64,000 bases of DNA, from the NCBI GenBank assembly GCA_964003245.1, contig CAXFIU010000002.1:7177-71176 (forward strand), read 5' to 3'. Positions 4,569-61,270 of the stretch are shown one piece after another. The position numbers and the translations under genes were made by a program. The notes beneath the pieces were generated by a model, which worked only from the letters and a program-made list of their open reading frames with translations, had not been told where the DNA came from and did no database searches. The stretch's first letter is position 1. Every line of letters begins with the position of its first letter. Source of the DNA: an uncultured Candidatus Poseidoniales archaeon. Its GTDB lineage: Archaea > Thermoplasmatota > Poseidoniia > Poseidoniales > Thalassarchaeaceae.

Positions 4569-5669
4569 ATGGAAAAATCAGTACAAAGGATACGTTATCC
4601 TCCTTTCGAACATTCTGATATGATCCCCAATGAGATACCCGTGATTGAAGTTATTCTAGAATCAGAGAATAAACCACCTCCAGCGTTTAAAATTGGAGAT
4701 GAAGAAGAATGGTTTGTTGAATGGAGAAAAGTAAATGAGGGGGATAAAAAACTCAAACTTATACAAGGACAAGTCTCTCAAGAAACTTTTCCCTTCTTAA
4801 TGCGAACAAGGAATGGTTGGTATATAGATCCAGATCCAATGCACTATAAAGCGAGGAAAATGATTGTTCCTGCTGTAATCATATTAATTTCAACATTATT
4901 TATGAGAGCCGTGACACCAGCATTAAGCGGTATCAATATTATTAGTCCATTATTGGATACATTAAATTATTCAATTAGAATAGGAGAATTAGATTATCCA
5001 TTATTTTTATTCGTAGCCTTCCCGATATTTATCTCTCCAATGATTTTTAGAATGATTGCAAATATGAGGGATATAAAGAGGCAAAATAATCTAATCAAAA
5101 ATCCAATAGATTCTCCAGATATTGAAATTGATAGAGGAGAAAATCAGATTGAGATTTCTATTAATAAAACTCCAAAGAACCTCGAAATTATTAGAGGAAG
5201 GTTACAAGTTGGAATTGCTGTCCCTGAGAGGAAAATGATTCTTGAATCCCAGGGTAAGAAAGAAGGAGACCAAACCATACCTGGGATGTCAACAGCACTG
5301 CCTGCAAGAAGGATTGCTTCGGGCGAAGAATTAGGCACAGGAGTAGGAGAATCAATACCTATGAATGTAGCAGATAGGAGAGTGATGATGTTAGAACCAA
5401 TGAGAGTATTAGAACCTGGAAAATGGGTTGAATTATCAGATAGAGAAGATGAGGAGAAAATTAACTTGCAAGGACCTGATGAATTATGGCCTGGTTCCAT
5501 ATATTCGGGATTAATAGCTGTACACTGGGAGTTAATTATTGATTTCTTAAAGAATGATGGGACAAGAATGAAATGGGTGAGACCAATAATAATGGATGAT
5601 TACCATCATAAGATAGAAATTAAACATCTACCAGTTAGGAGTGGGAGATTGGAACTTTCAAATTATTAA
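4569..5669 (+). CDS. Hypothetical membrane protein
   Basis: ORF 4527..5669; the likely start is the Met at 4569, just after the GGR stop. Several hydrophobic helices; no recognisable motif. Confidence 0.3.
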   Translation: MEKSVQRIRYPPFEHSDMIPNEIPVIEVILESENKPPPAFKIGDEEEWFVEWRKVNEGDKKLKLIQGQVSQETFPFLMRTRNGWYIDPDPMHYKARKMIVPAVIILISTLFMRAVTPALSGINIISPLLDTLNYSIRIGELDYPLFLFVAFPIFISPMIFRMIANMRDIKRQNNLIKNPIDSPDIEIDRGENQIEISINKTPKNLEIIRGRLQVGIAVPERKMILESQGKKEGDQTIPGMSTALPARRIASGEELGTGVGESIPMNVADRRVMMLEPMRVLEPGKWVELSDREDEEKINLQGPDELWPGSIYSGLIAVHWELIIDFLKNDGTRMKWVRPIIMDDYHHKIEIKHLPVRSGRLELSNY

Positions 5670-6841
5670 TCTTGAAGAGGAATTATTGCAATTAATTTAT
5701 TATCACTAAAAACTTCTGTTTCAAGATGATTATAGTCTGAATCTCTTTTCACAGGAGAAAAACCTGCTCTGATTATGGATGTTTGTAGTTCTTCCTCTTT
5801 GGCCAATGTTTTCTTTGTCCCAGAGGCAGAAACAACATTTTCCTCCATCATAGTAGATCCTGCATCATCAGCACCTGCTAAGATTGCCATTTGAGCAACT
5901 CCAAGGCCCATAGTTGGCCAAGATGCTTGGATGTGGTCAATATTATCGAAAAATAATCTAGATACAGAAATATGCCTTAGATATTCTACAGGACCTGCCC
6001 CTAATTCAATCCTATTCCTTCCACGATTCCTCTTTCCAAATACATTGTTTTCTAATTGAACCGGCCACGCTACAAATGATGTAAAGCCTACTCGTCCTTT
6101 GGAAATAGCTTCATCTTGTAAATCTCTAATTCGATCCATATGAAGTACACGATGATGTTCTGTTTCTCCAAAACCAAATACATTTGTCGCTGATGTTGTA
6201 AGTCCTAGTTCTTGGGCTTCTGACATAACTCTAAGCCAGTTTTCAGCAGACCCTTTCTTTGGAGAAATATCCAGCCTTACATCGTCAACTAACATCTCGG
6301 CGCCACCTCCTGGGAGGCCATGCATTCCTGATTCCTTTAATTTGGTTAAAACTTCAAATGTAGATAGATTACAAACGTCTGCAATACCTTCAATTTCGAT
6401 AGGAGAGAAACAATCCATTGAAATTTTTGGATGTTTTTCACGAATCTGAGATATGAGTTCAAGATACCAATCGAGATTTAAATCGGGATTTACACCTCCT
6501 TGCATTAAAATTCGAGACCCCCCAATATCTTCTAATTCAGAAATTCTTTGACTAATTTCTTCAAATGATTGAGTATATACTTCTGAATGCCCTGGAGGTC
6601 TGTAGAATGAACAGAATTGACAATTTATAGTACAAATATTAGTATAATTGATATTTCTATCAACTAAATATGTAACGATATTGCCAGGTACTTGTTTCTT
6701 TCTTCTTTCAAGTGATGCGTACATTAAATCATTAATATCTGCCTCTTCATAGAGTATTGTTGCATCTTCTACAGAAAGTCTATGTGGATTGTCAGATAAT
6801 TGTTCAGAAAGAATTGTTTTCCAACTACGCATATTTATCAC
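5666..6841 (-). CDS. Radical SAM enzyme of the MqnC/MqnE/CofG-CofH family (futalosine-pathway-like)
   Basis: CTINCQFCSF is a CxxxCxxC radical SAM cluster motif. GGVNPDLNLDWYLELISQIREKHP and the C-terminal region are typical of this subfamily. Confidence 0.55.
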   Translation of the reverse strand: MINMRSWKTILSEQLSDNPHRLSVEDATILYEEADINDLMYASLERRKKQVPGNIVTYLVDRNINYTNICTINCQFCSFYRPPGHSEVYTQSFEEISQRISELEDIGGSRILMQGGVNPDLNLDWYLELISQIREKHPKISMDCFSPIEIEGIADVCNLSTFEVLTKLKESGMHGLPGGGAEMLVDDVRLDISPKKGSAENWLRVMSEAQELGLTTSATNVFGFGETEHHRVLHMDRIRDLQDEAISKGRVGFTSFVAWPVQLENNVFGKRNRGRNRIELGAGPVEYLRHISVSRLFFDNIDHIQASWPTMGLGVAQMAILAGADDAGSTMMEENVVSASGTKKTLAKEEELQTSIIRAGFSPVKRDSDYNHLETEVFSDNKLIAIIPLQD

Positions 6842-10873: not shown

Positions 10874-11884
10874 ATGGAACCATACAATGACTCATGGATT
10901 TATTCGGGTTCCGCTAAAGAAAGATTATGGAATAAATCAGCAATAGGGCAGAAAATAAATGAAAATGACCTATTATTAAGCTCCTCAGAAGTAATTTTTT
11001 GTCATGACCACAGACATTTAGATTGGCCAAGTGACGATTGGTTAAAGGAAGAAACAGGAAAAAATCCAAATTTGATAAACGAATCAATAATTTTGGAAGC
11101 TTTGAGAGTCCCCGGAAATAAAATTATATTGACAAAAAATTACAAAGGGAAAAATGATTTCATTTTCAATAAAGAAACATGGGGTCTAAGATGGAATTCA
11201 AATGATCACCCAAGAGATGGAGAACCAGAATCGGAGGTTAGATGGTTTCATTCATCAGAATATATTGAAATGAATGAATTATTAGCATGGGCAATTGACG
11301 CAAGGTCTAGGAATCGTATAGCAGAAGTATTGATTGTTGATAATGAACAAGCAGTTGTTACTTACAACATTACTTCAGAAAATCCAATAGGAGAAATATT
11401 ACCACCCAATGATAAAGACAGAACAGTCGTTTCAAAACTTAAAAAAATAAAAATTGAAAAAGGAAATTTATATTTAGGGTACAAAAAATGGCCTTTGGAA
11501 CAACTTGGTATTGACTATCAAGAAGGGAGAATAATTGACGAGATTACAGAAGAATACATTTCAAAAGATGAAAAAGACTTTTCTGAATCTACGGAAGTGT
11601 TTTCAGATTTATTGAAGAGGGGTCTACACCCAAGACCTGGCTTTAAATATGGAACAGAATGGAGATGTTATGATAAAAAAATAGGTATCGATCACGCTCC
11701 GTGGTTGGTCGTAAATCCTTCGAATAAAATAATGACATGGGAGAGCGCTTGTTTAGCATCAAGATTAGCAGCCGGAGTAAATAAAACATGGCTTCAACCT
11801 TTGAAAATAAACGGCATGTGGAAATATCTTGGGATAATTAGGCCACCTGCAAATTCAAGATGGACTAATCCAATTAAAAAATAA
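10874..11884 (+). CDS. endA: tRNA-splicing endonuclease (long, duplicated-domain form)
   Basis: C-terminal catalytic motif LLKRGLHPRPGFKYGTEWRCYDKKIGIDHAPWLVV matches EndA (RGY-VK-GFKFGADFRVY...H--YLV). The 336-aa size fits the fused alpha2-type enzyme. Confidence 0.55.
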   Translation: MEPYNDSWIYSGSAKERLWNKSAIGQKINENDLLLSSSEVIFCHDHRHLDWPSDDWLKEETGKNPNLINESIILEALRVPGNKIILTKNYKGKNDFIFNKETWGLRWNSNDHPRDGEPESEVRWFHSSEYIEMNELLAWAIDARSRNRIAEVLIVDNEQAVVTYNITSENPIGEILPPNDKDRTVVSKLKKIKIEKGNLYLGYKKWPLEQLGIDYQEGRIIDEITEEYISKDEKDFSESTEVFSDLLKRGLHPRPGFKYGTEWRCYDKKIGIDHAPWLVVNPSNKIMTWESACLASRLAAGVNKTWLQPLKINGMWKYLGIIRPPANSRWTNPIKK

Positions 11885-11888
11885 ATTT

Positions 11889-13886
11889 TCATTCGGATTC
11901 TTCATCAGAAGCTAGATTTTTATTATGATTAGATCCACCTGTTAATATTGATAAGGCGAGAAGAATGCTAACCATAAACAAGCCATTTCCGGGTTCTGCA
12001 AACCATGAAAAGATTGCATTACTATTGAACGTTGACTTCGCCTCAAGAATTATTGGAATTCTTAGTTCTATCCCAAAATTATCTACGAAAACTAATTCAC
12101 CTCTAGCTATCATCCCTGGAACTAATAACCCTTCGGGATTGACATGAACATCTATAGTGTCTCCAGGACTAATAGTTACACTGGACTCCAAACTTGCTAT
12201 TCTAGAAGCAGCCCCTTGTATCTCTAAATTATAGAATCTTGATTCTTCGCCTTCGAAATCCAGTTCGATGGGAAATGTGTTTTCCTTATCTGAATCTACT
12301 AATAAGAAAAAATCCTCTGAGATAATTCGATTACCAGCCTTATGCCATTTTAATTCTACTTCTCTCAGATTAGAATCACAGCCCAATATACCAATGATGT
12401 TGCCAGAGGAAGGGAAATTATCATCTATAGTCATTATCGGAACTATTGAAACACCCACAGGTAATTTTTCTATTGTTTGGTTAATATAATTCCCACTGTG
12501 CGTCATAATATCAATTGAAAAATTACAAGTTATTGCTGTATCAACTTCGACGAAAATAGATTCCCCATTCAGTAATTCTACAGGGCTTCGAGGCGTCAAA
12601 ACATCGAATACATTTGTTTCTACGACTGGCGAAATAGATATTAGATAATCTCCACCTTCGATAGATTCAACGGATGCAAACCAACTTACTAAACGGCCTC
12701 GATTATCAAAAATCAACATACCATCAGAAGGATTAGTATTTCCAAATATTGTGCCATGAGTGAAAACATCACCAGCACTTCCTGAATCTTTATTTCTAAC
12801 TAGAGCATCATCTCCATCTGCTTCAATTATTTTCAACCAAGCATTTTTTGAATCCGTGTTTACAAGATTACTGCTAGTATCTCCATTATTGATATCTTGG
12901 TACTCAACTAATATTCCATGACCAGGGAGTGAAGCATCAAATCCAAAATTACCTCGATTTGTGATTTTAATAAATTCCCCTGGCCCCGTCTCAATAGAAA
13001 GATAATTGCCACCATTAGAAATTGGGCTCAAAGTGAAATTACCACCAACGTTAGGATCTACAACTATACCTCTTTCTATACCAATTAACTCTAATGTTGA
13101 AGATGAAGGTAACGCAGGAAAATTGCCATTACCATTCCAATTTCCACTAGCCATAATTCCCCATTCACCAATTCCATTCCAATTACTTGTTGGAAGATTA
13201 CTGTGAACATCATACAAATCATATGCGCCCATTTGATGAAGCATCTCATGAACGACAGTCCCAACCCCTGACTTAGTTGAGGCGATAGTATAATGATTAA
13301 TTGACCATTCATTGAGAATAATTGGGTTGTCCAAGCCTGACATATGACTCCAAATCGAACTAGTGCCACCTCCGAGTTCTTGTGGATTTGCAGAATGAAG
13401 TATTAGTAACCGATCTATGATTCCATTTTTATCGAAATCCCAAGGAGATAGGTCCAAATCAGATAGAGTCTCTTTAACTGCATTTTCTACGAGATTATCT
13501 ACTCCGACACCATCAGTTCCTGAGTCTCTTTCTTCACTATCTTGACCCCAGAAATCGATATTATGACTAGAAACCCAAATCTCATCTAGAATTGTCGTAT
13601 TGAGAGTGGACTGCCCCGAACTAATCTGATTGATATAATCTCTAGCCGAGTTCTCGGAGTTAAGAATAATCTCAGCCCTATCAGAATTGAAAACATCTCC
13701 TTGGAAAGATACAGGAATAACTAGCCAGTTTTCATTTTCTTGGAGACCTACTAAGATTTCTTCATCATCTTCGCTGATATTATTGACCTTATCATCCAAC
13801 CAATCATCAATAACTTCGGAATAAATATTTGCCAATAAGCCAAAAGAAACTATCGCGAGAGAAAGGATTCCTCGCGTCTTGTTCAT
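11889..13886 (-). CDS. Secreted zinc metalloprotease (HExxH) with C-terminal membrane anchor
   Basis: N-terminal signal peptide. Zinc motif VHEMLHQMGAYDLYD (HExxH plus downstream D/E, M6/InhA-like). C-terminal TM followed by an acidic tail. Confidence 0.5.
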   Translation of the reverse strand: MNKTRGILSLAIVSFGLLANIYSEVIDDWLDDKVNNISEDDEEILVGLQENENWLVIPVSFQGDVFNSDRAEIILNSENSARDYINQISSGQSTLNTTILDEIWVSSHNIDFWGQDSEERDSGTDGVGVDNLVENAVKETLSDLDLSPWDFDKNGIIDRLLILHSANPQELGGGTSSIWSHMSGLDNPIILNEWSINHYTIASTKSGVGTVVHEMLHQMGAYDLYDVHSNLPTSNWNGIGEWGIMASGNWNGNGNFPALPSSSTLELIGIERGIVVDPNVGGNFTLSPISNGGNYLSIETGPGEFIKITNRGNFGFDASLPGHGILVEYQDINNGDTSSNLVNTDSKNAWLKIIEADGDDALVRNKDSGSAGDVFTHGTIFGNTNPSDGMLIFDNRGRLVSWFASVESIEGGDYLISISPVVETNVFDVLTPRSPVELLNGESIFVEVDTAITCNFSIDIMTHSGNYINQTIEKLPVGVSIVPIMTIDDNFPSSGNIIGILGCDSNLREVELKWHKAGNRIISEDFFLLVDSDKENTFPIELDFEGEESRFYNLEIQGAASRIASLESSVTISPGDTIDVHVNPEGLLVPGMIARGELVFVDNFGIELRIPIILEAKSTFNSNAIFSWFAEPGNGLFMVSILLALSILTGGSNHNKNLASDEESE

Positions 13887-13935
13887 ACATGTCGCTAAAC
13901 TAACTATGATTTGAATACGATGTTGAATTGTTCAA

Positions 13936-14670
13936 TTATTTTTCAAAAATAGGAGTGAGACGAGAAATCGAATCGGCAAAGAAAACTGTCAAAAGAGAAA
14001 TAATTATTCTTAATCCATCGTATGTCTTTGGAAGCGATAATAAGACTAAAGAAAAAGATATCAATAGTATACGAATCCTGATTCTAGATTCGTTATCTAC
14101 AACCATACCAAAAAATCTAGACATTGAAAGTACTAATGTAGTTAGAACCCCAATGACGAGAACCCATGAAAAGCCAATTCCTAAGCTAATTATTGAAACC
14201 GCATCATACCTAGCAGAAACTATATTCTCTCCGCCTTCAACCATACTATTTTCATCAAAATAATTTATTAGGAAAGGAATTACGAAAAACCATATTAGGT
14301 ATAATATTACAGGGATAATGACGCCACTAAAAAATAGAGAAAATGTGAACCATTTCTTCTCCCTGGGATATAATCCGGGTAATGCAAAACTTCTAATTTT
14401 CAATGTAGTATAAGGTAATATCATTGCAATTGAGAAGATTAGTAATAATGCCCACTTAGTATCAATCCAGTCATATGGACTATACACAGAGAATGAATAT
14501 TCCTCAGCCTCTAAAGAAAGGCCTTCTAACCAATTAGTCAAAATATCATCGATTAAAAATGAAAGAAAGAAAGAAATTATTACTACTCCAAAAGCACTGA
14601 CTCGAATTATTTTATATAACTCAGAAAAATGTTCTGAGAAAGCCATTTTTTCATTAGAATAAGGTTGCAT
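13936..14670 (-). CDS. tatC: Twin-arginine translocase subunit TatC
   Basis: Six TM segments. N-terminal HFSELYKIIRV matches the TatC HL-ELR-RL motif, and PGLYPREKK matches TatC PALYKHERR. The start is probably Met at index 9 (~14646). Confidence 0.65.
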   Translation of the reverse strand: MQPYSNEKMAFSEHFSELYKIIRVSAFGVVIISFFLSFLIDDILTNWLEGLSLEAEEYSFSVYSPYDWIDTKWALLLIFSIAMILPYTTLKIRSFALPGLYPREKKWFTFSLFFSGVIIPVILYLIWFFVIPFLINYFDENSMVEGGENIVSARYDAVSIISLGIGFSWVLVIGVLTTLVLSMSRFFGMVVDNESRIRIRILLISFSLVLLSLPKTYDGLRIIISLLTVFFADSISRLTPIFEK

Positions 14671-14671
14671 T

Positions 14672-15736
14672 TCAAAGTATATCCTTGACTTTAGGTTTGG
14701 CTCTTGCAGCTAATATTGTTCGGTAAAAGCAGTAAGCAAACCATCCACTAAGTAAGAATGTAAATCCAATTACAAAACTAGTAAGATCGGTTACATTTTG
14801 TGCCTCAGGATCTAGAACTGCTCTAGGAGGGAATTCTAGTACTGCATCTTCGGCTAGCCACCTAACTGCAATGACAAATGATACTAGGCTGAAGAATAAC
14901 TGTCTCAATGCTTGCGGATAAGCTAATTCTGCGGCTAAGTGATCAGGGCCATCATCATATTTTCTTTCTAATATCTCCCTTTGGACAAGCGCACCGATAA
15001 TTAATGCTGTTAGACTGAACCAATAGAACATACTACCTTGTTCATAAATCTTCATAGAAAGCGCTTCTTGTCTCTTAGCTTCTTTTTCAGCATCTGTTTC
15101 TTCAATAAGGAATAATGAATCATAATCTCCAACTGAAATTGTTCTTGTAGACAATGTTGCGTCATCTTCACCTTCTTCTATAGTTCCAGGTGGACTGATT
15201 GAGAATGCTAATAAATTCCAGTAATCTTCAGTATCCGGTATACCTCCACCATCTACTGAGTTTCCTGCTAGCCAGAAATTTACAGTTCCACTATCATTGG
15301 AAGGTGCAGTCCAAGTTACTATCCAGACACCGTCTGAATCTGTCTCGCTGTGAGAAATATCTGCCTCAGTATCAGCTGCAATGCGGATATCTTGATCATC
15401 GTTCCATGAAAAAATGCCAATGGAATCTGATGATAATAAAAATCCAGCCTTGGAATTACCATCACCTCCTGAAAGTGTCAAAGAATCTGCAACTTTGATG
15501 GTAAACTCATAGCTTTCACCTAATTCATACATAATTGGGACACTAGTAATCATCACAACGGCTCTCTCAGAGACCGCTCCATTATTGTGACAAGAGCAAC
15601 CATATTTCACAGTTGGATCGCCGTCTTGATTTAGGTATGGAGGCCCTCCACTGTTCCCTAAAGCAGGAATTGCAGCCATACCTATAATCAAAAGAACGAC
15701 TAAGGCTTTCGAGTTGATGCTCGTCATGCAGTACAC
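14672..15736 (-). CDS. Secreted CxCH-motif protein with C-terminal TM segments (paralog of 60458..61270)
   Basis: Signal peptide. Motifs GCSCHNNG and VNFWLAGNSVDGGG are shared with ORF 60458 (GCTCHAEE, VNFWIAGNTVNGD). An acidic linker and two C-terminal TM helices follow. Confidence 0.45.
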   Translation of the reverse strand: MYCMTSINSKALVVLLIIGMAAIPALGNSGGPPYLNQDGDPTVKYGCSCHNNGAVSERAVVMITSVPIMYELGESYEFTIKVADSLTLSGGDGNSKAGFLLSSDSIGIFSWNDDQDIRIAADTEADISHSETDSDGVWIVTWTAPSNDSGTVNFWLAGNSVDGGGIPDTEDYWNLLAFSISPPGTIEEGEDDATLSTRTISVGDYDSLFLIEETDAEKEAKRQEALSMKIYEQGSMFYWFSLTALIIGALVQREILERKYDDGPDHLAAELAYPQALRQLFFSLVSFVIAVRWLAEDAVLEFPPRAVLDPEAQNVTDLTSFVIGFTFLLSGWFAYCFYRTILAARAKPKVKDIL

Positions 15737-38734: not shown

Positions 38735-39772
38735 TTATTTCCTACCACGAGTTGTTCCGAGTTTTCTTGACTGCTTCTTACCCTTAATATTCTTAGTAAC
38801 AGGGGATTTTGAATCACCTGTTAAAACTCCACCGAGAGTTAATGATCCACTGTTGATTAATTGAGATGCCAAAGAATCAGCCATCCCCTCATCTTCACTT
38901 GGTAACTTTAGAGCATCTTTGACAGATTGATTATGATCTTTAATTACTTTCAAACGTTCTTCTTCAGCAGCTTTCATTTCGTCTCTAATCTCATTTACTT
39001 GACCAATTAACTCTTTCATATTCTCATGAACTTCATTAGCAGATTCTCTATGTGCGACATATGCTAAATGGAATCTATCAGCCTCCGCTCGCAGAAAGTC
39101 TCTTTCCGCTAGCATAGGTTTCACATCTTCCCAAATTAAATCTGCTTGCTTATGAAAATCAATCATTTCTTGGTGCGCTTTATCTGCTTCGGATTTTAGT
39201 AATTTGATAGAACCATCCATGTCTCCTATATCAATATTAATTGCCTCAAAGTCTTTTACTGCAGGCATTAATTTATCTCTCTTAGAGATTAAAACTTTTA
39301 ATTTCTTAAGTAATTTATTCTCGGTTTCTAAAATTAATCGGCCATCAGTCATCATAGTATTCTCGATTTTTTCTATTTCATTAATAGTCTCAGATAATTC
39401 TATGACAACAGACTTAGTACCTTTAGCCTCATCTTTACGACCCCTATTTTGATTAATCAGTTCTCTAATTTGATTTTGAATTTCATCTCTTCTTGCTTTA
39501 CATATTTGAGCCTGGTCTCTTACTTTTTTCTGTTCGTCTAATTTCTCTTTAATGGATTCTCTGATTTCCTTACTTTGTTCTTGTAAAGCATTTCTTGAAT
39601 CCGCAGCTCGACGAGCATCTTCATTAAATGAATTCCTTTGATCTTTCATTCTACGGATCTTTGTTTCCATAGCATGTAATCTTGTTCTAAGATCATCATC
39701 AGGTCCCTTCTGCTCATCTTTCACAAGGCTCGCGAGAGAGGGCCCCTTCTTCAATGAAACTACTTGATTCAT
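38735..39772 (-). CDS. Coiled-coil protein, family member 1 (basic KR-rich C-terminal tail)
   Basis: Heptad-rich, highly charged. C-terminal motif LINSGSLTLGGVLTGDS then KGKKQSRKLGTTRGRK, shared with the ORFs at 44810 and 45861. Confidence 0.45.
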   Translation of the reverse strand: MNQVVSLKKGPSLASLVKDEQKGPDDDLRTRLHAMETKIRRMKDQRNSFNEDARRAADSRNALQEQSKEIRESIKEKLDEQKKVRDQAQICKARRDEIQNQIRELINQNRGRKDEAKGTKSVVIELSETINEIEKIENTMMTDGRLILETENKLLKKLKVLISKRDKLMPAVKDFEAINIDIGDMDGSIKLLKSEADKAHQEMIDFHKQADLIWEDVKPMLAERDFLRAEADRFHLAYVAHRESANEVHENMKELIGQVNEIRDEMKAAEEERLKVIKDHNQSVKDALKLPSEDEGMADSLASQLINSGSLTLGGVLTGDSKSPVTKNIKGKKQSRKLGTTRGRK

Positions 39773-41343: not shown

Positions 41344-41991
41344 TTATTCTACTCTGACTATGACTTTGAAACTCAATTCTCTTGAGAAGATGATTTCAGA
41401 ATCATCGCAATAAAATTTATCTGATTTTTTAATAATCTTGGAACCAATTTTCACACCCGCGTTTTCTAATGTTTTAATTGCAACACTGCTAGAATAAATT
41501 AGTTCAATTATTGAAGGTGTATCATCGGGTAGTGCAGATAAAGGTAAAAGTATATTTGACGTAGAAGTGATCATACTTCTATCGACAATTGGAATCATCC
41601 GCCCCTCTCTATTTCTCTCAGGATAACCCAACATTCTATCGATACATGCTTCTAATTCAACATCTATACCATGCTCAATCTTACAGGCAGCTGCATCAAC
41701 ATCTCCATCGAATCGAATCACATCAGATAATAAAATTTTCAACAACTCTTCTCTTCTCTTGATTCTAGATGCATGTGTAAATCCTTCAGAAGTTAGCCTG
41801 CACCCTTTGTAAGGAATATATGTCACATAATCTCTTCCTGCTAGTCTTTGAATCATTTCAGTTGTAGATGCTGGACTTACATCCATTAGTTCAGCTAATT
41901 TGGTAGTTCGAACGATTTCTCCAGGTTCTTCCGAATGTGCCTCGAAAATTCTTTTGAGATACATTTCTTCAAACTCACTCAATTTAGACAT
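41344..41991 (-). CDS. DtxR/MntR-family metal-dependent transcriptional regulator (wHTH + dimerisation + FeoA/SH3-like C-domain)
   Basis: TTKLAELMDVSPASTTEMIQRLAGRDYVTYIPYKGCRLTSEGFTHASRIKRREELLKILL matches the DtxR N-terminal HTH/dimerisation region. A FeoA-like C-terminal domain is present. Confidence 0.6.
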   Translation of the reverse strand: MSKLSEFEEMYLKRIFEAHSEEPGEIVRTTKLAELMDVSPASTTEMIQRLAGRDYVTYIPYKGCRLTSEGFTHASRIKRREELLKILLSDVIRFDGDVDAAACKIEHGIDVELEACIDRMLGYPERNREGRMIPIVDRSMITSTSNILLPLSALPDDTPSIIELIYSSSVAIKTLENAGVKIGSKIIKKSDKFYCDDSEIIFSRELSFKVIVRVE

Positions 41992-42000
41992 ACAAACACC

Positions 42001-43935
42001 TTAACCTATTTTTGCTATAAATTCAACTCTACAAGCAGGACAACGCGACCTGACAGGCCTCTTATCGAGTGCTACTCTAAGAGTTTGTTCACATTTTGGA
42101 CAAGCTAATAAATCAGTTAACGATGATGCCTCGGGTTCAGAAACAATAACTTCATTCTCTGATCCATCTATTTCTTCGTTATCTGATGTCTCACTCTCAA
42201 TTAAATTATTTTGAGAGAATTGCAAAGAGCAGGCAGGGCATTTAACAGAACCAAAGTGATCGATTGGAATATTCAATCTCTGACTACAAGAAGGACAAGA
42301 AACTTCCTTCTTTGATTCAGAATTATTATTACTTGAAGTTCTATTTGACAAATTACGCCTAAATAGAGTTGATTCTGTCGAAGGTGTACGTTGAGAAATT
42401 ACTCTATAAATTACCAAGCAAGTCATAACAATAGCTAGGCCGGATAGGGCTCCATAAATTGCAGCATAGATGCTAAAAGGTAGTGAGAAACTAGTGCCAC
42501 TCTCAGATTCAACGAGAACTGATGTTTGATTACTCACACTGATATCTCCCATGGACCAAATAAATTCAATATTAGTAGTTTGAGAATATTTCCATGAAGA
42601 AAATTCTACTGAACCTGAATATTTACCTCCACTACTTATCGAAGGTATTGATATTTCTGTAAATACTAGAGGCGGTTGGGCCACATCAACTATTCTCAAT
42701 AATCCAGGAGATGTTTCTGAAGCTCCAGTATTCTCTAAAGTGTATTCAATAGAGAAAGATTCGCCAGCAGATATAGGAGAAGGAGATGCGTCTGAAATAA
42801 TTATTGAGGGAATTACTAATGGAGGAGTTAATTCAACAACTACTTCTCCGTCTCCATTCAAAGGAAGCCAATAATTAGGGCTAACAATCACCTTTAGTCG
42901 ACTCGCATCAGGATGACCGAGTTTTAGGTTGATATTTCTAATTCCAGGATTCATTTGTAAGGTAAATGTTTGATATTCAGTGTATTCGTTACCTGATTTC
43001 ATTAATACTTCGAGATCTACGCTGCGATTCAGTCCTGAACTTAGATAAATTGAAACATCTAAATTGATACCGTCTTGAAAAGTCCAAGTAATTTCTTCTA
43101 ATTCGACATTAATATCCTGAGATTCTCTAACCTCTATATTCGAGCTACCGTTCAGAGAGATATCGACACCGCCATTCAAAGAAGATACCTTCCAATCAAT
43201 TACTAGAGAACCAGACAAAAGAGGGATGAAGTTAGCAGAAACTTCTCTACTAGAACCGGGAGAGATTACAATGAAATCTCCATTGACTAAAGTTGACCCA
43301 TCATCTTTAGTTAACTCTAGTCTAACAGAATCACTATTAGATCCTTTATTATGGACTAAAATTGAGGCAGTAAGTTGGTCTCCAACATGAACTGGTTGGC
43401 CAATAATAACAATCTCTTCAGAACCTGCAGATGAAAAATTAACAGGATTAGGACCTACTCGCATTTCAAGAATTTCAATTTCTTCAGTATTATCAACTTG
43501 CAACTTGCAAAGGATATAACCTTCACTAACTGGTCCGAAAGAAATGACGACATCGGTAGCAGATGCTGTGCCGTCTAATATCCCTGAATGCCCACCATAC
43601 CATTGTCCACCATAACCAAAACTAAAACTCCAAGATGAATTATCAGATGAAAGATTCGAATTGAATACTTGAATCTTCAGATCCACAAAATCCCCGTCAG
43701 AAGCAGAATCATTACCTGTTTTTTCCAGAGTACCACCGTCTAAATATTCAATAGACCATGTATTACTATCTGAAATGGTAAAATCGTCATCAGAGGCGGT
43801 AACATTATACGAAAAAATTATCATTAATATTGATAAATATAAAAAAACCTTCAAAGAAGAAACTGTAACTCTTCCGGTCATTAGATAATACTCGACAAGA
43901 ACAACCGTATGAATGAAACCCCTCTTCGGGGTCAC
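42001..43935 (-). CDS. Cell-surface protein with beta-rich ectodomain, single TM and cytoplasmic tail bearing two zinc ribbons
   Basis: Signal peptide (LKVFLYLSILMIIFSYNVTA). TM AIYGALSGLAIVMTCLVIY. Tail has CPSCSQ...CPACS and CPKCEQ...CPACR. Confidence 0.45.
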   Translation of the reverse strand: MTPKRGFIHTVVLVEYYLMTGRVTVSSLKVFLYLSILMIIFSYNVTASDDDFTISDSNTWSIEYLDGGTLEKTGNDSASDGDFVDLKIQVFNSNLSSDNSSWSFSFGYGGQWYGGHSGILDGTASATDVVISFGPVSEGYILCKLQVDNTEEIEILEMRVGPNPVNFSSAGSEEIVIIGQPVHVGDQLTASILVHNKGSNSDSVRLELTKDDGSTLVNGDFIVISPGSSREVSANFIPLLSGSLVIDWKVSSLNGGVDISLNGSSNIEVRESQDINVELEEITWTFQDGINLDVSIYLSSGLNRSVDLEVLMKSGNEYTEYQTFTLQMNPGIRNINLKLGHPDASRLKVIVSPNYWLPLNGDGEVVVELTPPLVIPSIIISDASPSPISAGESFSIEYTLENTGASETSPGLLRIVDVAQPPLVFTEISIPSISSGGKYSGSVEFSSWKYSQTTNIEFIWSMGDISVSNQTSVLVESESGTSFSLPFSIYAAIYGALSGLAIVMTCLVIYRVISQRTPSTESTLFRRNLSNRTSSNNNSESKKEVSCPSCSQRLNIPIDHFGSVKCPACSLQFSQNNLIESETSDNEEIDGSENEVIVSEPEASSLTDLLACPKCEQTLRVALDKRPVRSRCPACRVEFIAKIG

Positions 43936-43976: not shown

Positions 43977-44813
43977 ATGAACACAGATGAGCTTCTCGCA
44001 GTCACGCCGGAAGAGATGGCTAAATCTCTACTAGCTCGTAGGGAATTGCTAAGGCAACAATTGCCTACTGTAATTAGAACATTAGAAGCTGATGAACAAA
44101 ATCTCGCACCTAAAGCGAAAAAAGCTGTTGAAATTAGTAAAAATATAAATTCTAAAGTTAGTGAATTAAAAGAAGAGAGAAACAAAGCTCAGAAAGAAGC
44201 AAATGAGTTACTGAAGATTGTTAAAGAAAGTAGAGAGAAACTAATTCAAAGTGATGGAATGATTAATCTTGATCCTTCTTGGAAGAAGGAAAAAATGTTT
44301 GAAGAAATAGAAGATATTGAGAAAAAAATAGAAACATCAGCTTTAGACCACAAAGCCGAAAGAAAGTTGTTAGATAAAAGAAAAAAACTGATTGAAGAAA
44401 ATGATAAATGGCTTAAACAAAGAAGAGACTTAAATCCCGAGATGGTTACATACATAGATGCAAGAAGAGAAATGAATAAACTTTACAGACTAGCAGATAA
44501 ATCACATAGAAAAATGCTTGATGGAGTAGAAAAAGCTCAACCACAACATGAAAAACAACAGAAAATTAGAGATGATTTGCGTGAAATCCGAAGACAACTA
44601 GACAGAGCTAGAGAATTACTATCACAGTCTGATCGAGCAATTGAGTATTGGGAAAGAAGACTAGACAAAGGATTTGGAGAATTAGGAGATGGTTTCAAAG
44701 ATCTATTATCGGCACAAAGAAAAGTCGCCGAGGGAGGAGATTCATCTTTTGCTAGAAAGAAGAAAATCAAAAAGGTAGAAAATATTTCTAAAAAGAAGGA
44801 GGAAGAGGAATGA
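43977..44813 (+). CDS. Coiled-coil protein, family member 2
   Basis: Charged heptad-rich sequence, KR/E-rich tail. Weaker C-terminal motif (AEGGDSSF). Confidence 0.4.
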   Translation: MNTDELLAVTPEEMAKSLLARRELLRQQLPTVIRTLEADEQNLAPKAKKAVEISKNINSKVSELKEERNKAQKEANELLKIVKESREKLIQSDGMINLDPSWKKEKMFEEIEDIEKKIETSALDHKAERKLLDKRKKLIEENDKWLKQRRDLNPEMVTYIDARREMNKLYRLADKSHRKMLDGVEKAQPQHEKQQKIRDDLREIRRQLDRARELLSQSDRAIEYWERRLDKGFGELGDGFKDLLSAQRKVAEGGDSSFARKKKIKKVENISKKKEEEE

Positions 44814-45860: not shown

Positions 45861-46736
45861 TTGCTAATGATGGATTTTGATGAGGTTAGAGGTGTTCTAA
45901 CACCTAAAAGTACTTCATTAGATGAGAAACTTTCTGAATTCAGAGAAGATAGAGATAACTGGAATGCTAAAGTCAAAAAATACTTGACGGAAAGAAACGA
46001 AATCAATAGACAAGTTAAGGAATTAATTACTGAAGTTCAAAATCAAAAAGTAATAAGAGATGAAGCTAATTCTAAAGTCAAAGATCTAAAAATTATTCGA
46101 GCAGAAAGGTCCTCTGTTCTAAAACAACTTCGAGCAGAATTACAGGAAAAAAGACCTGTTGAACAGAAAAAAGAAGAAAAGAGAGAGAAGAAGCGTAATG
46201 AAAGAACTATCCGAAATGATATTGAAAAAATGGATATGAAATTTAATTATGGACATTTTCAAGGTAAGGAAAGAAATTTTGAAAGACAAATGAAGAAGTT
46301 ATATCAAGAGTTGAAAGAAATTAAAAAGCAAAAGAAAGAAAATATTTTTTCCGAACTAGAATCACAAATAAGAAAAGCAGCAAAATCTCAAGAAGAAGCT
46401 CACAGACTTGTAGAAGATGCTGTTAATACCGCTCAAGAATCTCATGATTTAATGATAGAATTATCAGAGGAAGTAGATAGATTGAGGGCAAAGGCAAATA
46501 CATCTCAAGAAGGAGTAATACGTTCAAAAAGGGAAGCAGACTTGTTACATAACAAATATGTGGTTTCACTGAGAAGTATTCATTCTATTCAAGATTTATT
46601 CAAGGCGATGATTGCACAAGAGAAGGATGTTGAGGACGATGATGGTAGCAAGTTAGAGGTCACCGACTTGATGTCCAGATTGATGTCAGGAGACACTCTA
46701 TCGACAGAAGAACTGATGGCTTTACAAAGAAACTAA
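45861..46736 (+). CDS. Coiled-coil protein, family member 4
   Basis: Ends with MSGDTLSTEELMALQRN, the same SGD-x-L-[ST]-T-[EQ]-EL motif as members 1 and 3. Confidence 0.45.
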   Translation: MLMMDFDEVRGVLTPKSTSLDEKLSEFREDRDNWNAKVKKYLTERNEINRQVKELITEVQNQKVIRDEANSKVKDLKIIRAERSSVLKQLRAELQEKRPVEQKKEEKREKKRNERTIRNDIEKMDMKFNYGHFQGKERNFERQMKKLYQELKEIKKQKKENIFSELESQIRKAAKSQEEAHRLVEDAVNTAQESHDLMIELSEEVDRLRAKANTSQEGVIRSKREADLLHNKYVVSLRSIHSIQDLFKAMIAQEKDVEDDDGSKLEVTDLMSRLMSGDTLSTEELMALQRN

Positions 46737-60457: not shown

Positions 60458-61270
60458 ATGAACAACATCAATCGCGTTAGCCGTCGGACCTTGGTTTTAG
60501 TAGTATTAGCGCTATTTTTAGCAACTACAACTCAAGCGTACCATACAGGTATAGGAGGAGATTCTGATGGTGAAGGTGATGTTGCACTTGCGGGTTGTAC
60601 ATGCCATGCAGAAGAGCCAGATAATTCTGTCACTGTAGTACTAAATGATGTCCCATTCCATTATGAAGCTGGGAAGTCTTACGCTATGACTCTTCAACTA
60701 ATTGGAGGAGCAGAAATAGGCGGAGCACAAACAGGAGGTTTTTCAATGAGAGTAACTCAAGGAATTCTTTCAGCAGGGATTGGTTCTGAAACACACGTAG
60801 AAAATTGGGAAGATGAAGAAAACACTTTGACCCATACAGATTCTGGATCTAAGACAGAAGATAGGACTTGGCATTTGATTTGGACCGCCCCCGAATCAGG
60901 AAGTGGCCCCGTAAATTTCTGGATTGCTGGAAATACTGTTAATGGCGATGCAATTCCTTCAGCTTTAGACAGATGGAATAGACTTACCGTAACATTGGAT
61001 GAAGGAGCAGATAATGGCAAGACTCGAATGTTATTCTCAGGGAACGGAGAGATTGAACCTCCTGCACCTAAGGAAACTCATGTGGATTTGCACCACATGG
61101 GTGCAGCACTTAGAGCGCATTGGCTTGGACTTCTAGGATTCTTTGCCGTAATTATAGTAATCATCTTCTGCGGATTCTTCTTGAGATATGGGTTCTCACG
61201 AAACTACAAAGGTAGATCGAATCTGCTAAGGCTAAGAATCAAGCATGAAAGGAGGGGTGATCAAATATGA
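60458..61270 (+). CDS. Secreted CxCH-motif protein with C-terminal TM anchor (paralog of 14672..15736), first gene of the Rieske/cytochrome b cluster
   Basis: Signal peptide. AGCTCHAEE and VNFWIAGNTVNGDAIP are shared with ORF 14672. C-terminal TM LGLLGFFAVIIVIIFCGFFL. Confidence 0.45.
   Translation: MNNINRVSRRTLVLVVLALFLATTTQAYHTGIGGDSDGEGDVALAGCTCHAEEPDNSVTVVLNDVPFHYEAGKSYAMTLQLIGGAEIGGAQTGGFSMRVTQGILSAGIGSETHVENWEDEENTLTHTDSGSKTEDRTWHLIWTAPESGSGPVNFWIAGNTVNGDAIPSALDRWNRLTVTLDEGADNGKTRMLFSGNGEIEPPAPKETHVDLHHMGAALRAHWLGLLGFFAVIIVIIFCGFFLRYGFSRNYKGRSNLLRLRIKHERRGDQI

What the first reader, a model, noticed from the sequence alone, without database searches (positions are those of the whole stretch)
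14672..15736. Paralogous pair of secreted CxCH-motif proteins, one heading the Rieske / split cytochrome b operon
ORFs 14672..15736(-) and 60458..61270(+) share a signal peptide, a G-C-[ST]-C-H motif ~20-30 aa after the signal cleavage region, a conserved VNFW[IL]AGN[ST]V[DN]G block, and C-terminal TM anchors. The 60458 copy is immediately upstream of a Tat-Rieske protein, a cytochrome b6-like N-subunit and a cytochrome b C-subunit, all co-oriented and tightly packed. TatC lies next to the second copy at 13936..14670. The C-x-C-H spacing is not the canonical CxxCH heme c site. A novel metal/heme-binding periplasmic electron carrier acting as partner of the bc-type complex is therefore plausible.
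Basis: partly seen in the sequence, partly recalled or inferred. Interest (0 to 1): 0.6.

Follow-up and report, generated by a model that had tools for sequence, protein, structure and literature searches.

The report
Reeler-like CxCH subunit of archaeal complex III
In Marine Group II archaea, the gene heading the Rieske/cytochrome b (complex III-like) operon encodes a membrane-anchored, outward-facing Reeler-like protein with an invariant Cys-x-Cys-His site, sitting where related archaea carry a blue-copper protein on the same anchor, so it is a good candidate for the missing electron-accepting subunit of these organisms' respiratory chain.

Summary
ORFs A (14672..15736, -) and B (60458..61270, +) are true paralogues (BLASTP E 1e-21). 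They share a signal peptide, GC[ST]CH, the VNFW[IL]AGN[ST]V[DN]G block and C-terminal membrane anchors.

The domain is not unnamed. Both pass NCBIfam NF041895 ("choice-of-anchor V", function unknown). The AlphaFold models and a family profile match only the F-spondin Reeler domain among solved structures.

B is a conserved part of the Rieske/cytochrome b cluster. The order B, DUF7318-like 2-TM protein, Tat-Rieske, cyt b N, cyt b C holds in all 80 MGII species loci kept by the scan. It also holds in Poseidoniaceae and in three distant Thermoplasmatota loci (~30% identity) with unrelated flanks.

The decisive result is a domain swap. In other Thermoplasmatota the same operon position and a homologous anchor (51% identity, E 6e-23) carry a plastocyanin-type cupredoxin instead. 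B therefore most likely replaces the anchored blue-copper acceptor of the complex (the c1/f role).

Its invariant C47/C49/H50/H126 probably bind a redox metal, but the cofactor is untested. Copy A is not linked to the complex; it is conserved next to tatC and an M6 peptidase.

Verdict: a new variant of a known system, moderately high interest.

The parts
60458..61270 (+). Copy B (270 aa): signal peptide, Reeler-like 'choice-of-anchor V' ectodomain, one TM anchor and a conserved basic cytoplasmic tail. It is the head gene of the Rieske/cyt b cluster.
   Evidence: ORF; NF041895 93.5 bits against a cutoff of 42; AF2 models with pLDDT 78-81; synteny.
60593..60607 (+). G46-C47-T-C49-H50 motif of B, the proposed metal site.
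   Evidence: Invariant in A1 and in 105 family domains selected for carrying the motif; coordinates.
60827..60838 (+). L-T-H126-T of B, the second conserved His (90% His, otherwise mostly Gln, across the family).
   Evidence: In the profile alignment it lies 4 residues from the F-spondin Cys in 'SNCPV'.
60911..60946 (+). VNFWIAGNTVNG block of B, a strand end and loop at the same pole as the Cys/His residues.
61097..61204 (+). TM anchor of B (MGAALRAHWLGLLGF...FFLRYGFS), homologous to the anchor of operon-head cupredoxins in other Thermoplasmatota.
61267..61716 (+). 149-aa 2-TM protein, DUF7318-like. It is a small subunit that is fused to the Rieske N-terminus in locus L095.
   Evidence: Pfam DUF7318 at E 6e-5, sub-threshold; clear DUF7318 hits in L094-L096, L098 and L100; fusion seen.
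61695..62564 (+). Divergent Tat-exported Rieske protein (DRREFL; CPHLCC...CICHSS).
62548..63441 (+). Cytochrome b, N-terminal (b6-like) subunit.
   Evidence: PF00033, E 8e-42; 81-100% identical in 72 of the 73 MGII loci where it was detected, 76% in one contig-end fragment.
63455..64000 (+). N-terminal part of the cytochrome b C-terminal subunit (PDWY Qo motif), cut by the window end. It is 928 aa in the nearest relative, with a 4Fe-4S dicluster and two CCG domains.
14672..15736 (-). Copy A (351-354 aa; likely start at ATG 15727): signal peptide, the same ectodomain, and a different 2-3-TM C-terminal region.
15587..15601 (-). G-C-S-C-H motif of A.
13936..14670 (-). tatC, starting 2 bp downstream of A's stop. 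The A-tatC pair is conserved in relatives.
11889..13886 (-). Membrane-anchored M6 (InhA-like) metallopeptidase, the third member of the conserved A-tatC-M6 block.

Best explanation
Copy B is the outward-facing, membrane-anchored third subunit or obligate partner of the Rieske/cytochrome b complex of Marine Group II and some other Thermoplasmatota. The complex also contains the DUF7318-like 2-TM protein, a Tat-exported Rieske protein and a split cytochrome b.

B occupies the position that a plastocyanin-type cupredoxin holds, on a homologous TM anchor, in sister lineages, and that halocyanin holds in the haloarchaeal cluster. Functionally this is the cytochrome c1 / cytochrome f slot.

Proposed mechanism. 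Menaquinol is oxidised at the Qo site (PDWY). One electron goes to the Rieske cluster, whose mobile head then reduces a metal centre in B's Reeler-type beta-sandwich. That centre would be most plausibly copper, ligated by C47/C49/H50 and H126 at one pole. From there the electron passes to halocyanin or the terminal oxidase.

Shown: paralogy, family membership, the Reeler-like fold, deep synteny and the cupredoxin/choice-V swap on a shared anchor. Inferred: physical membership of the complex, redox activity and the identity of the cofactor.

Copy A is a paralogue of the same module on a different anchor. It serves a different, unidentified partner encoded with tatC and the M6 peptidase.
For: (1) The order B, 149-aa protein, Rieske, cyt b N is kept, as far as each contig extends, in all 80 MGII species loci kept by the scan, often with abutting or overlapping ORFs. 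It also holds in Poseidoniaceae.

(2) The same order holds in three Thermoplasmatota loci whose head protein is about 30% identical and whose flanking genes are entirely different. One of these has a Cx6CH variant and a DUF7318-Rieske fusion.

(3) A scan for the anchor motif found 8 more loci, all followed by DUF7318, Rieske and cyt b as far as each contig extends. One head protein carries the choice-V domain. Six carry a type-1-copper cupredoxin (H..H...C-D-V-H-P-x-x-M); the one scoring head (L098) reaches Pfam Copper-bind 26.1 bits against a cutoff of 21.2, and NCBI names it 'plastocyanin/azurin family'.

(4) The anchors are homologous. L097 and L098 align only over the C-terminal 90 aa, at 51% identity and E 6e-23. 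In a 5.8-billion-sequence search with the cupredoxin protein, choice-V proteins are hit through the anchor alone (E 6.5e-15 and 2e-12). The MGII anchor profile ranks all the cupredoxin anchors above decoys.

(5) C47, C49 and H50 are invariant and H126 about 90% conserved across the family. They are the only Cys in the ectodomain. By strand parity in the models, these residues, N159-G163 and D171-N174 all lie at the same pole of the sandwich (inference).

(6) Domain fusions point to redox contexts. One member has choice-V plus a cupredoxin. Another has choice-V plus a 4-TM, 4-His DUF4079 / cytochrome b561-like domain.

(7) The literature says MGII have cyt b and Rieske but no cytochrome c1 (PMC6336850). 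It also describes a haloarchaeal halocyanin-Rieske/cytb cluster with split cyt b (PMC3509893).
Against: The fold matches only Reeler domains, which have no known cofactor. No cupredoxin, cytochrome or DOMON similarity was found. No cofactor could be tested, and model coordinates could not be inspected, so clustering of the Cys/His residues is inferred, not measured. MGII encode separate, highly transcribed halocyanins (PMC9723583) that could take electrons from the Rieske protein directly, leaving B a structural role. The first Cys varies in spacing (CxCH, Cx4CH, Cx6CH; one member has GATCH), which fits a disulfide loop as well as a metal site. Paralogue A and most family members are not next to respiratory genes, so the domain's generic function need not be electron transfer. 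Within MGII the whole neighbourhood is syntenic, so those 80 loci alone are weak evidence. The argument rests on the 11 distant loci.
Confidence: 0.5

Rival explanations
1. B is a genuine subunit of the complex but is not redox-active. The conserved anchor is what the complex needs. The Reeler-like ectodomain would be a structural cap, an S-layer or pseudo-periplasm spacer, or a docking platform for soluble or lipid-anchored halocyanin, which would take electrons directly from the Rieske head.
For: The Reeler fold has no known cofactor. MGII have separate, highly expressed halocyanins. The anchor and cytoplasmic tail are strongly conserved. The ectodomain diverges faster than cyt b: 55-96% against mostly 81-100% identity.
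Against: C47, C49 and H50 are strictly invariant and H126 nearly so, over a family with about 16% mean column identity. That argues for a chemical site rather than a scaffold. The domain it replaces is itself a redox centre. Fusions to a cupredoxin and to a b561-like domain point the same way.
Confidence: 0.22
2. The CxC pair is a redox-active disulfide. The domain would be an Ig-fold thiol:disulfide oxidoreductase (as in the N-terminal domain of DsbD) or a Sco-like Cys2His copper chaperone. It would act on exported redox proteins, for example forming the Rieske disulfide (CPHLCC/CICH) or metallating cupredoxins or CuA. That would explain A next to tatC and B next to a Tat-exported Rieske.
For: Variable Cys spacing (x1, x4, x6) is easily tolerated by a disulfide loop. 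There are only two Cys per ectodomain. A is conserved beside tatC. In F-spondin the aligned regions each carry a Cys, and from memory these two form a disulfide. The choice-V plus cupredoxin fusion could be a chaperone with its client.
Against: A maturation factor would not be expected to share its membrane anchor with, and be replaced one-for-one by, a cupredoxin at the operon head. The loci with cupredoxin heads have no choice-V gene nearby. The adjacent invariant His and the second conserved His are not explained by a simple disulfide catalyst.
Confidence: 0.12
3. B is a cytochrome f-like protein with covalently bound heme. C-x-C-H would be an aberrant heme c attachment site about 20 residues from the mature N-terminus of a beta-sandwich, as in cytochrome f (C21-x-x-C24-H25), with H126 or the N-terminal amine as the sixth ligand.
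For: The 'CH' dyad is invariant while the first Cys moves or is lost (GATCH), as in known CXnCH and AXXCH heme sites. The topology is the same as cyt f and c1: signal peptide, beta-rich P-side domain, C-terminal TM helix, at the head of a Rieske/cyt b operon.
Against: No CxCH heme c site is known (own knowledge). Cytochromes c and the CCM system were found in only five archaeal orders, apart from two proteins in a single Thermoplasmatales single-cell genome (PMC4429474). No cytochrome f or c fold appears among the structural matches. The window contains no maturation genes.
Confidence: 0.06
4. The pair are ordinary surface or adhesin proteins of the choice-of-anchor V family, and their placement next to respiratory and Tat genes is incidental.
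For: Family members with PGF-CTERM-type anchors sit in unrelated contexts. Eukaryotic Reeler domains bind heparin or microbial surfaces (own knowledge). The long family members carry CARDB, PKD, fn3 and Big domains.
Against: The head-of-operon position is kept across about 30%-identity divergence, different flanks and a domain swap on the same anchor. ORFs overlap or abut the downstream genes.
Confidence: 0.03

Closest known systems
Haloarchaeal halocyanin-Rieske/cytb gene cluster (Baymann et al. 2012, PMC3509893), and the anchored plastocyanin-family proteins heading DUF7318-Rieske-cyt b operons in other Thermoplasmatota (e.g. P0420)
   Same: Split cytochrome b, a Tat-type Rieske protein, no cytochrome c1, and a P-side membrane-associated protein encoded in the cluster as the presumed electron acceptor. 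In Thermoplasmatota the TM anchor is homologous and the operon position identical.
   Different: The ectodomain is not a cupredoxin. It has no H...C-x2-4-H-x2-5-M motif, no Pfam cupredoxin hit and no cupredoxin structural match. It is a Reeler-like sandwich with C-x-C-H plus a distal His. In MGII the cyt b C subunit additionally carries FeS/CCG domains.
Cytochrome c1 (bc1) and cytochrome f (b6f), the lineage-specific third subunits of Rieske/cyt b complexes
   Same: Signal peptide, P-side globular domain, a single C-terminal TM helix, and a gene within the Rieske/cyt b operon. Cytochrome f is also a beta-sandwich with its ligand motif about 20 residues from the mature N-terminus (own knowledge).
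   Different: There is no CxxCH, no detectable homology or fold match, and probably no heme c maturation system in this phylum.
Reeler domain (Pfam PF02014): F-spondin and reelin N-terminal domains; the Reeler-DOMON-cytochrome b561 protein FRRS1/SDR2
   Same: Best and only structural and profile match: Foldseek E about 1e-6, target-normalised TM about 0.6; profile against PDB gives E 0.003-0.006. Shared P-x-x-Y-x-x-G-x-x-Y, GF and W-x-AP elements. One archaeal member is fused to a 4-His b561-like TM domain, echoing FRRS1.
   Different: The Pfam gathering score is not reached: 17.6 and 14.8 bits against 21. The C-x-C-H and T-H-T residues are not in the part of F-spondin that aligns; from memory, F-spondin has a disulfide there. 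Eukaryotic Reeler domains are not known to bind metals.
NCBIfam NF041895 'choice-of-anchor V domain' and NF041894 MXAN_6652 family (MYXO-CTERM proteins)
   Same: Both window proteins score above the NF041895 cutoff, and NCBI already names MGII orthologues this way. Architecture is a signal peptide, a ~150-aa domain and a variable C-terminal anchor.
   Different: The family has no assigned function. The subfamily with the A[HY]W[LV]G...FFL[RK][YF]G anchor at the head of Rieske/cyt b operons, and the A-type subfamily next to tatC, are not distinguished in the model. No paper in the searched library describes them.
CbsA (cytochrome b558/566) of the Sulfolobus SoxLN-CbsAB Rieske/cyt b analogue (own knowledge, not tested here)
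   Same: An archaeal, lineage-specific, extracellular beta-rich protein with a C-terminal anchor, encoded with Rieske/cyt b and proposed to stand in for cytochrome c1/f.
   Different: CbsA binds heme b and is unrelated in sequence. No similarity was detected or tested.

Membership tests
NCBIfam NF041895 choice-of-anchor V domain | HMM score above the curated cutoff (42 bits) | tested here: met
   B scores 93.5 bits (E 1.2e-26) and A 67.2 bits (E 1.6e-18), covering profile positions 2-147 of 150.
NCBIfam NF041895 choice-of-anchor V domain | N-terminal signal peptide, a single ~150-aa domain, then one of several alternative C-terminal anchors | tested here: met
   Signal peptide and TM anchors in A and B. 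Relatives end in PGF-CTERM-like tails, polytopic TM regions or long Ig-repeat stalks.
Reeler domain (Pfam PF02014) | Pfam gathering score (21 bits) | tested here: not met
   A scores 17.6 bits and B 14.8 bits. A relative, P0315, scores 20.8 bits.
Reeler domain (Pfam PF02014) | Reeler-type beta-sandwich fold | tested here: met
   Two independent AF2 models (ectodomain pLDDT about 90). The top Foldseek PDB hits are all F-spondin reeler domains (2zou, 2zot, 3coo) at E 8.5e-7 to 3e-5, with target-normalised TM 0.53-0.61. The family profile hits only these chains in the PDB.
c-type cytochrome (c1 / f-like) | CxxCH (or a known CXnCH/K variant) heme-attachment motif | tested here: not met
   The motif is C-x-C-H; no CxxCH is present in A or B. 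Relatives have Cx4CH or Cx6CH, so the result is suggestive but not canonical.
c-type cytochrome (c1 / f-like) | A heme c maturation system (CCM/CCS) in the genome | not testable with these tools
   Whole genomes were not available. The literature reports cytochromes c and CCM as essentially absent from Thermoplasmatales (PMC4429474). None is present among the window's genes.
Cupredoxin / halocyanin | Type-1 copper ligand pattern H...C-x(2-4)-H-x(2-5)-M in a cupredoxin fold | tested here: not met
   There is no such motif in A or B and none in a real gene elsewhere in the window. There is no Pfam Copper-bind or Cupredoxin hit and no cupredoxin among the structural matches.
Cupredoxin / halocyanin | Position and anchoring as the P-side partner in the Rieske/cyt b cluster (a functional analogy, not family membership) | tested here: met
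   Same operon slot and a homologous anchor as the Thermoplasmatota plastocyanin-family head proteins.
Third (acceptor) subunit of a Rieske/cyt b complex (functional class) | Encoded in a conserved operon with Rieske and cytochrome b across divergent lineages | tested here: met
   80/80 MGII loci, Poseidoniaceae, L094-L096 and L097.
Third (acceptor) subunit of a Rieske/cyt b complex (functional class) | Carries a redox cofactor with a potential between those of the Rieske cluster and the terminal acceptor | not testable with these tools
   Only conserved Cys2His2 candidate ligands can be shown. Biochemistry is needed.
Third (acceptor) subunit of a Rieske/cyt b complex (functional class) | Physically associated with the complex | not testable with these tools
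   No multimer prediction or proteomic data were available. Association is inferred from operon structure and the shared anchor.
DOMON / heme b-binding sandwich | Sequence or fold match to DOMON, EB_dh or the CDH cytochrome domain | tested here: not met
   No Pfam hit at E <= 1 and none among the top 50 structural matches.
Tat substrate carrying a pre-assembled cofactor (e.g. an Fe-S protein) | Conserved twin-arginine signal peptide | tested here: not met
   The n-regions of orthologues vary (RR, KR, QK, PR) in both the A and B families. The adjacent Rieske protein has a canonical DRREFL.

The most novel reading that the evidence does not exclude
The prokaryotic Reeler-like 'choice-of-anchor V' domain is a previously unrecognised class of electron-transfer module. 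Its metal centre would be built from an N-terminal C-x-C-H and a distal His at one pole of a beta-sandwich. In Marine Group II archaea it would be the long-missing cytochrome c1 equivalent of complex III. By extension, the Reeler domain of eukaryotic Reeler-DOMON-b561 ferric reductases would descend from a redox or metal-handling module rather than an adhesion domain.
Probability: 0.3. Interest if true: 0.85.

Novelty: new variant of a known kind. Interest (0 to 1): 0.68.

Why it matters
Marine Group II archaea are among the most abundant archaea in the surface ocean and remain uncultured. [quoted passage not shown] This analysis names a concrete candidate for the missing subunit. It shows that the candidate is interchangeable with a blue-copper protein on a shared membrane anchor across Thermoplasmatota. 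It also gives a large family of unknown function (about 3,800 representative proteins at 50% identity) its first functional context. If the Cys2His2 site binds a redox metal, this would be a new electron-transfer fold, and a new example of how Rieske/cyt b complexes recruit lineage-specific acceptors. The hypothesis can be tested directly by expressing a ~170-residue soluble domain.

Tried and rejected

(2) The search for related loci with the diverse family alignments A2 and A3 failed because no stretch was conserved enough. The single genome scan therefore used the MGII alignment A1 and returned only MGII loci. Family-wide context rests on 12 individual look-ups and one metagenome scan, which returned only 8 loci.

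(3) A single-sequence PDB search gave only an antibody chain at E 0.37, which is noise.

(4) Literature searches for 'choice-of-anchor', 'CXCH motif' and 'reeler domain' + archaea found nothing on this protein. The one 'CXCH motif' hit was a paper on Qo-motif evolution, which I did not open.

(5) An Fe-S (Rieske- or mitoNEET-like) centre at Cys2His2 was considered and rejected. The signal peptides lack a conserved twin-arginine, so export is probably via Sec in the unfolded state.

(6) Heme b ligation by the His residues near B's TM helix was considered. The AHW His is Tyr in many relatives, so this was rejected.

(7) Homology between A's C-terminal TM region and B's anchor was tested with an HMM and not found.

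(8) The window was scanned for further copies and for cupredoxin motifs. There are only the two copies and no credible type-1 copper protein.

(9) Model coordinates are not exposed by the tools, so residue-residue distances could not be measured.
Full report
**Observation.** Both ORFs are present as described.
- A (14672..15736, minus strand, 354 aa from a GTG) and B (60458..61270, plus strand, 270 aa) align at 26% identity over 254 residues, E 1e-21.
- Orthologues of A are 351 aa and start MASINSK/MVSINSK, so its real start is probably the ATG at 15727.
- In both proteins G-C-[ST]-C-H is at residues 46-50 and VNFW[IL]AGN[ST]V[DN]G at 152-163. The two motif cysteines are the only Cys in either ectodomain.
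- B has a signal peptide, a beta-rich ectodomain, one TM helix (about 214-249) and a basic tail. A has the same ectodomain followed by two or three TM segments.
- TatC (13936..14670) starts two bases after A's stop.
Next is a Tat-signal Rieske protein (DRREFL; CPHLCC...CICHSS) so divergent that Pfam does not detect it. Then come cytochrome b N (PF00033, E 8e-42) and, from 63455, the start of a cytochrome b C subunit with a PDWY Qo motif, cut by the window end.
- Homologue names place the window in Marine Group II archaea (Thalassarchaeaceae, Poseidoniales). The nearest genome locus, UBA439, is 96-100% identical for four of the five cluster proteins and 81% for the cyt b C fragment.

**What the domain is.** It is not an unnamed family.
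- Both proteins score above the curated cutoff of NCBIfam NF041895, 'choice-of-anchor V domain' (93.5 and 67.2 bits; cutoff 42). They give sub-threshold Pfam Reeler hits.
- Two AlphaFold2 models of B, built from 26- and 56-sequence alignments, have ectodomain pLDDT of about 90. They show a beta-sandwish-free, plain beta-sandwich whose best PDB matches are, in both cases, the F-spondin Reeler domain (E about 1e-6, target-normalised TM about 0.6). Generic cohesin and Ig folds follow. No cupredoxin, cytochrome or DOMON fold appears.
- A profile of 56 family members searched against all PDB sequences hits only three chains, all F-spondin Reeler domains (E 0.003-0.006).
- A profile search of 1.84 billion representative proteins finds 3,829 members at E <= 1e-3. 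They are typically 200-230 aa, and many end in PGF-CTERM-like tails typical of archaeal surface proteins.
- Of the 148 newly returned proteins among the top 150 hits, 127 have C-x-C-H. Most of the others are fragments. A few carry GCGGxGCH (Cx4CH), GCTDFATGCH (Cx6CH) or GATCH.
- Across 105 domains chosen for carrying the motif, the most conserved positions (B numbering) are G46-C47-x-C49-H50, P66, Y75, G94-F95, H126 (90%; otherwise mostly Gln), W138, W142, P145, N159, V161, G163, D171 and W173.
- By strand parity in the models, the Cys/His residues, N159-G163 and D171-N174 all lie at one pole of the sandwich. This is an inference, because coordinates are not exposed.

**Context of B.**
- A genome scan found 245 relatives. 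In all 80 loci kept (MGII species representatives) the order is B, 149-aa protein, Rieske, cyt b N, as far as each contig extends, usually with abutting or overlapping ORFs.
- The same holds in Poseidoniaceae (MGIIa).
- The whole neighbourhood is syntenic within MGII, so this alone is weak evidence.
- The informative cases are three Thermoplasmatota loci whose head proteins are only about 30% identical to B and whose flanking genes are unrelated. Each is a choice-V protein with a TM anchor, then DUF7318, then Rieske (CxHxxCC...CxCH). L094 and L095 continue with cyt b N and cyt b C. L096 ends at the contig edge, and the ORF after its Rieske gene does not look like cytochrome b.
- L095 has the Cx6CH variant and a DUF7318-Rieske fusion. 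L096 has two tandem choice-V genes.
- Family members without this anchor lie in unrelated contexts.

**The domain swap.**
- The anchor of these proteins has a recognisable motif: G[VI]xxLA[YH]W[VL]G[VI][IV][SA]F...FF[LV][LF][RK][YF]GES..TDH.DR. The MGII version is MGAxLRAHWLGLLGF...FFLRYGFS.
- Scanning metagenome contigs for it returned eight loci (GC 67-70%). Every one is followed by DUF7318, Rieske, cyt b N and cyt b C where the contig allows.
- In L097 the ectodomain is choice-V (GCVCH).
- In L098-L102 and L104 it is instead a type-1-copper cupredoxin (APHNIH...FVCDVHPETMKG and similar). The L098 head reaches Pfam Copper-bind at 26.1 bits against a cutoff of 21.2. The identical database protein is named 'plastocyanin/azurin family copper-binding protein [Candidatus Thermoplasmatota archaeon]'.
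- L097 and L098 head proteins align only over their C-terminal 90 residues (51% identity, E 6e-23). Their downstream genes are orthologous: DUF7318 49%, Rieske 32%, cyt b N 62%.
- In a 5.8-billion-sequence search with the cupredoxin protein, choice-V proteins P0323 and P0285 are recovered through the anchor alone (E 6.5e-15 and 2e-12).
- A profile of the MGII B C-terminus ranks all seven cupredoxin-type anchors above every decoy ORF.
- So one conserved anchor at one operon position carries either a blue-copper domain or the Reeler-like C-x-C-H domain.

**Other hints.**
- One family member fuses the domain, via CARDB repeats, to a plastocyanin-type cupredoxin.
- Another, from an archaeal contig, fuses it via Ig repeats to a DUF4079 four-helix domain with one His per helix and a weak prokaryotic cytochrome b561 hit. 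That architecture recalls the eukaryotic Reeler-DOMON-b561 protein FRRS1 (own knowledge).

**Mechanism.** The best reading is that B is the P-side, membrane-anchored third subunit or obligate partner of the Thermoplasmatota Rieske/cyt b complex. It would take the place of the anchored cupredoxin, and so functionally of cytochrome c1 or f.
- Electrons from menaquinol would pass via the Rieske head to a centre formed by C47/C49/H50 and H126, then on to halocyanin or the oxidase.
- A MqnC-like radical SAM gene is in the window. The Qo motif is PDWY, and Rieske box II is C-I-C-H-S-S-R-F. From published rules, one of the two potential-raising residues is therefore present.
- Copper is the most economical guess for the cofactor. 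Three reasons: the domain substitutes for a copper protein; export looks Sec-type, with no conserved twin-arginine, which excludes a pre-assembled Fe-S cluster; and c-type heme maturation is reported as essentially absent from this lineage (PMC4429474).
- None of this is shown. What is shown is paralogy, family, fold, deep synteny and the swap. Complex membership, redox activity and the metal are inferred.

**Rivals.**
- A non-redox structural or docking subunit. MGII have separate, highly expressed halocyanins.
- A redox-active CxC disulfide or Sco-like copper-handling function tied to Tat-exported clients. This would also explain A beside tatC.
- A cytochrome f-like covalent heme.

**Copy A.** A-type proteins are conserved in MGII, always followed by tatC and a membrane-anchored M6 metallopeptidase. 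The upstream neighbour differs: pntAA-pntAB-pntB in Thalassarchaeaceae, and ETF beta/alpha in another lineage. A's TM region is not detectably related to B's anchor. A is therefore not part of the Rieske/cyt b cluster. Its partner is unknown, and the conserved adjacency to tatC is unexplained.

**Comparison with what is known.**
- Baymann et al. (2012) describe a haloarchaeal halocyanin-Rieske/cytb cluster with split cytochrome b and propose halocyanin as the acceptor. That is the closest known system.
- No paper in the searched library mentions this protein, a C-x-C-H Reeler-like domain, or its link to Rieske/cyt b.
- I therefore class it as a new variant of a known kind: a Rieske/cyt b complex with a novel candidate third subunit. 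There is roughly a 30% chance that the domain is a genuinely new electron-transfer module.

**Limits.**
- Only 11 loci outside MGII support the association.
- Two fold libraries were unavailable.
- Model coordinates could not be inspected.
- Presence or absence of heme c maturation genes in MGII genomes could not be checked directly.

Noticed in passing
window 63455..64000 (+); full length in L011 8997..11783 and L001 9003..11798: The cytochrome b C-terminal subunit of MGII is a 928-942-aa fusion. It has a PDWY/subunit IV-like N-terminus, extra TM helices, a ~300-aa intervening region, a 2x[4Fe-4S] ferredoxin-like domain (aa 566-622) and two CCG domains (HdrD/GlpC/SdhE-like, to aa 897). That would put a cytoplasmic Fe-S/CCG module directly on a Rieske/cyt b complex. 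Other Thermoplasmatota have a plain 212-aa subunit (L095) or a Laminin_G_3 fusion (L094).
   Followed up: partly
window 61267..61716 (+); L095 7741..8760: The 149-aa 2-TM protein between B and the Rieske gene is DUF7318-like and is conserved in every cluster examined. In L095 it is fused to the N-terminus of the Rieske protein, upstream of the internal twin-arginine motif. That gives a 3-TM Rieske like actinobacterial QcrA, to which the window protein has a weak NCBIfam hit (E 0.22). DUF7318 thus appears to be a split-off Rieske membrane anchor.
   Followed up: partly
window 11889..15736 (-); L005-L008, L091: The block A-type choice-V protein, tatC, M6 (InhA-like) peptidase is conserved across MGII lineages even where the upstream genes differ (pntAA/AB/B against ETF beta/alpha). 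TatC length varies widely: 244 aa here, 257-447 aa in relatives. The reason for the A-tatC linkage is unexplained.
   Followed up: partly
window 61695..62564 (+): The Rieske protein is so divergent that Pfam gives no hit at E <= 1 and TIGR01416 scores only 37.6 bits (cutoff 97.4). It still keeps CPHLCC...CICHSS, including the disulfide cysteines. Box II reads C-I-C-H-S-S-R-F (Ser present, Tyr replaced by Phe), which suggests an intermediate-potential cluster.
   Followed up: no
L096 7001..9855: One Thermoplasmatota locus has two tandem choice-V paralogues (346 aa and 499 aa, both with polytopic C-terminal regions) ahead of DUF7318-Rieske. The ORF following that Rieske gene (11051..11992) does not look like cytochrome b, and the contig ends there.
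   Followed up: no
family-wide (P0303, P0310, P0363, P0364, P0379, P0261): Motif variants keep the C-H dyad but move or lose the first Cys: GCGGxGCH (Cx4CH), GCTDFATGCH (Cx6CH) and GATCH. The Cx6CH protein P0303 still heads a DUF7318-Rieske-cyt b operon.
   Followed up: partly
L009 1864..4260 (P0327); L093 6001..7944 (P0273): There are fusions of the choice-V domain to a four-helix, four-His DUF4079 / b561-like membrane domain, and to a plastocyanin-type cupredoxin via CARDB repeats. Neither lies near respiratory genes.
   Followed up: partly
window 5666..6841 (-): A radical-SAM protein with a CofH/MqnC C-terminal region, possibly a futalosine-pathway enzyme. That would be consistent with menaquinone as the pool quinone and with the PDWY Qo motif.
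   Followed up: no
L011-L090 vs window 60458..63441: The genes of the cluster evolve at very different rates across MGII. In 72 of the 73 loci where it was detected, cyt b N is 81-100% identical (76% in one contig-end fragment), against 55-98% for the Rieske protein over its best-aligned segment. The 149-aa protein is 55-98% identical and B 55-96%, while the cyt b C N-terminal part is only 32-81%.
   Followed up: no
window 38735..39772 (-), 43977..44813 (+), 45861..46736 (+): Three paralogous DUF7121-like ORFs are scattered around a DtxR-type iron-dependent repressor (41344..41991, -) and a 644-aa CARDB-containing secreted protein (42001..43935, -).
   Followed up: no
L092 8132..9010 (-): One PGF-CTERM-type family member (P0393) lies two genes from an FTR1-type iron permease. 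This is a single case and possibly coincidental, but it is noted because eukaryotic Reeler-DOMON-b561 proteins are ferric reductases.
   Followed up: no
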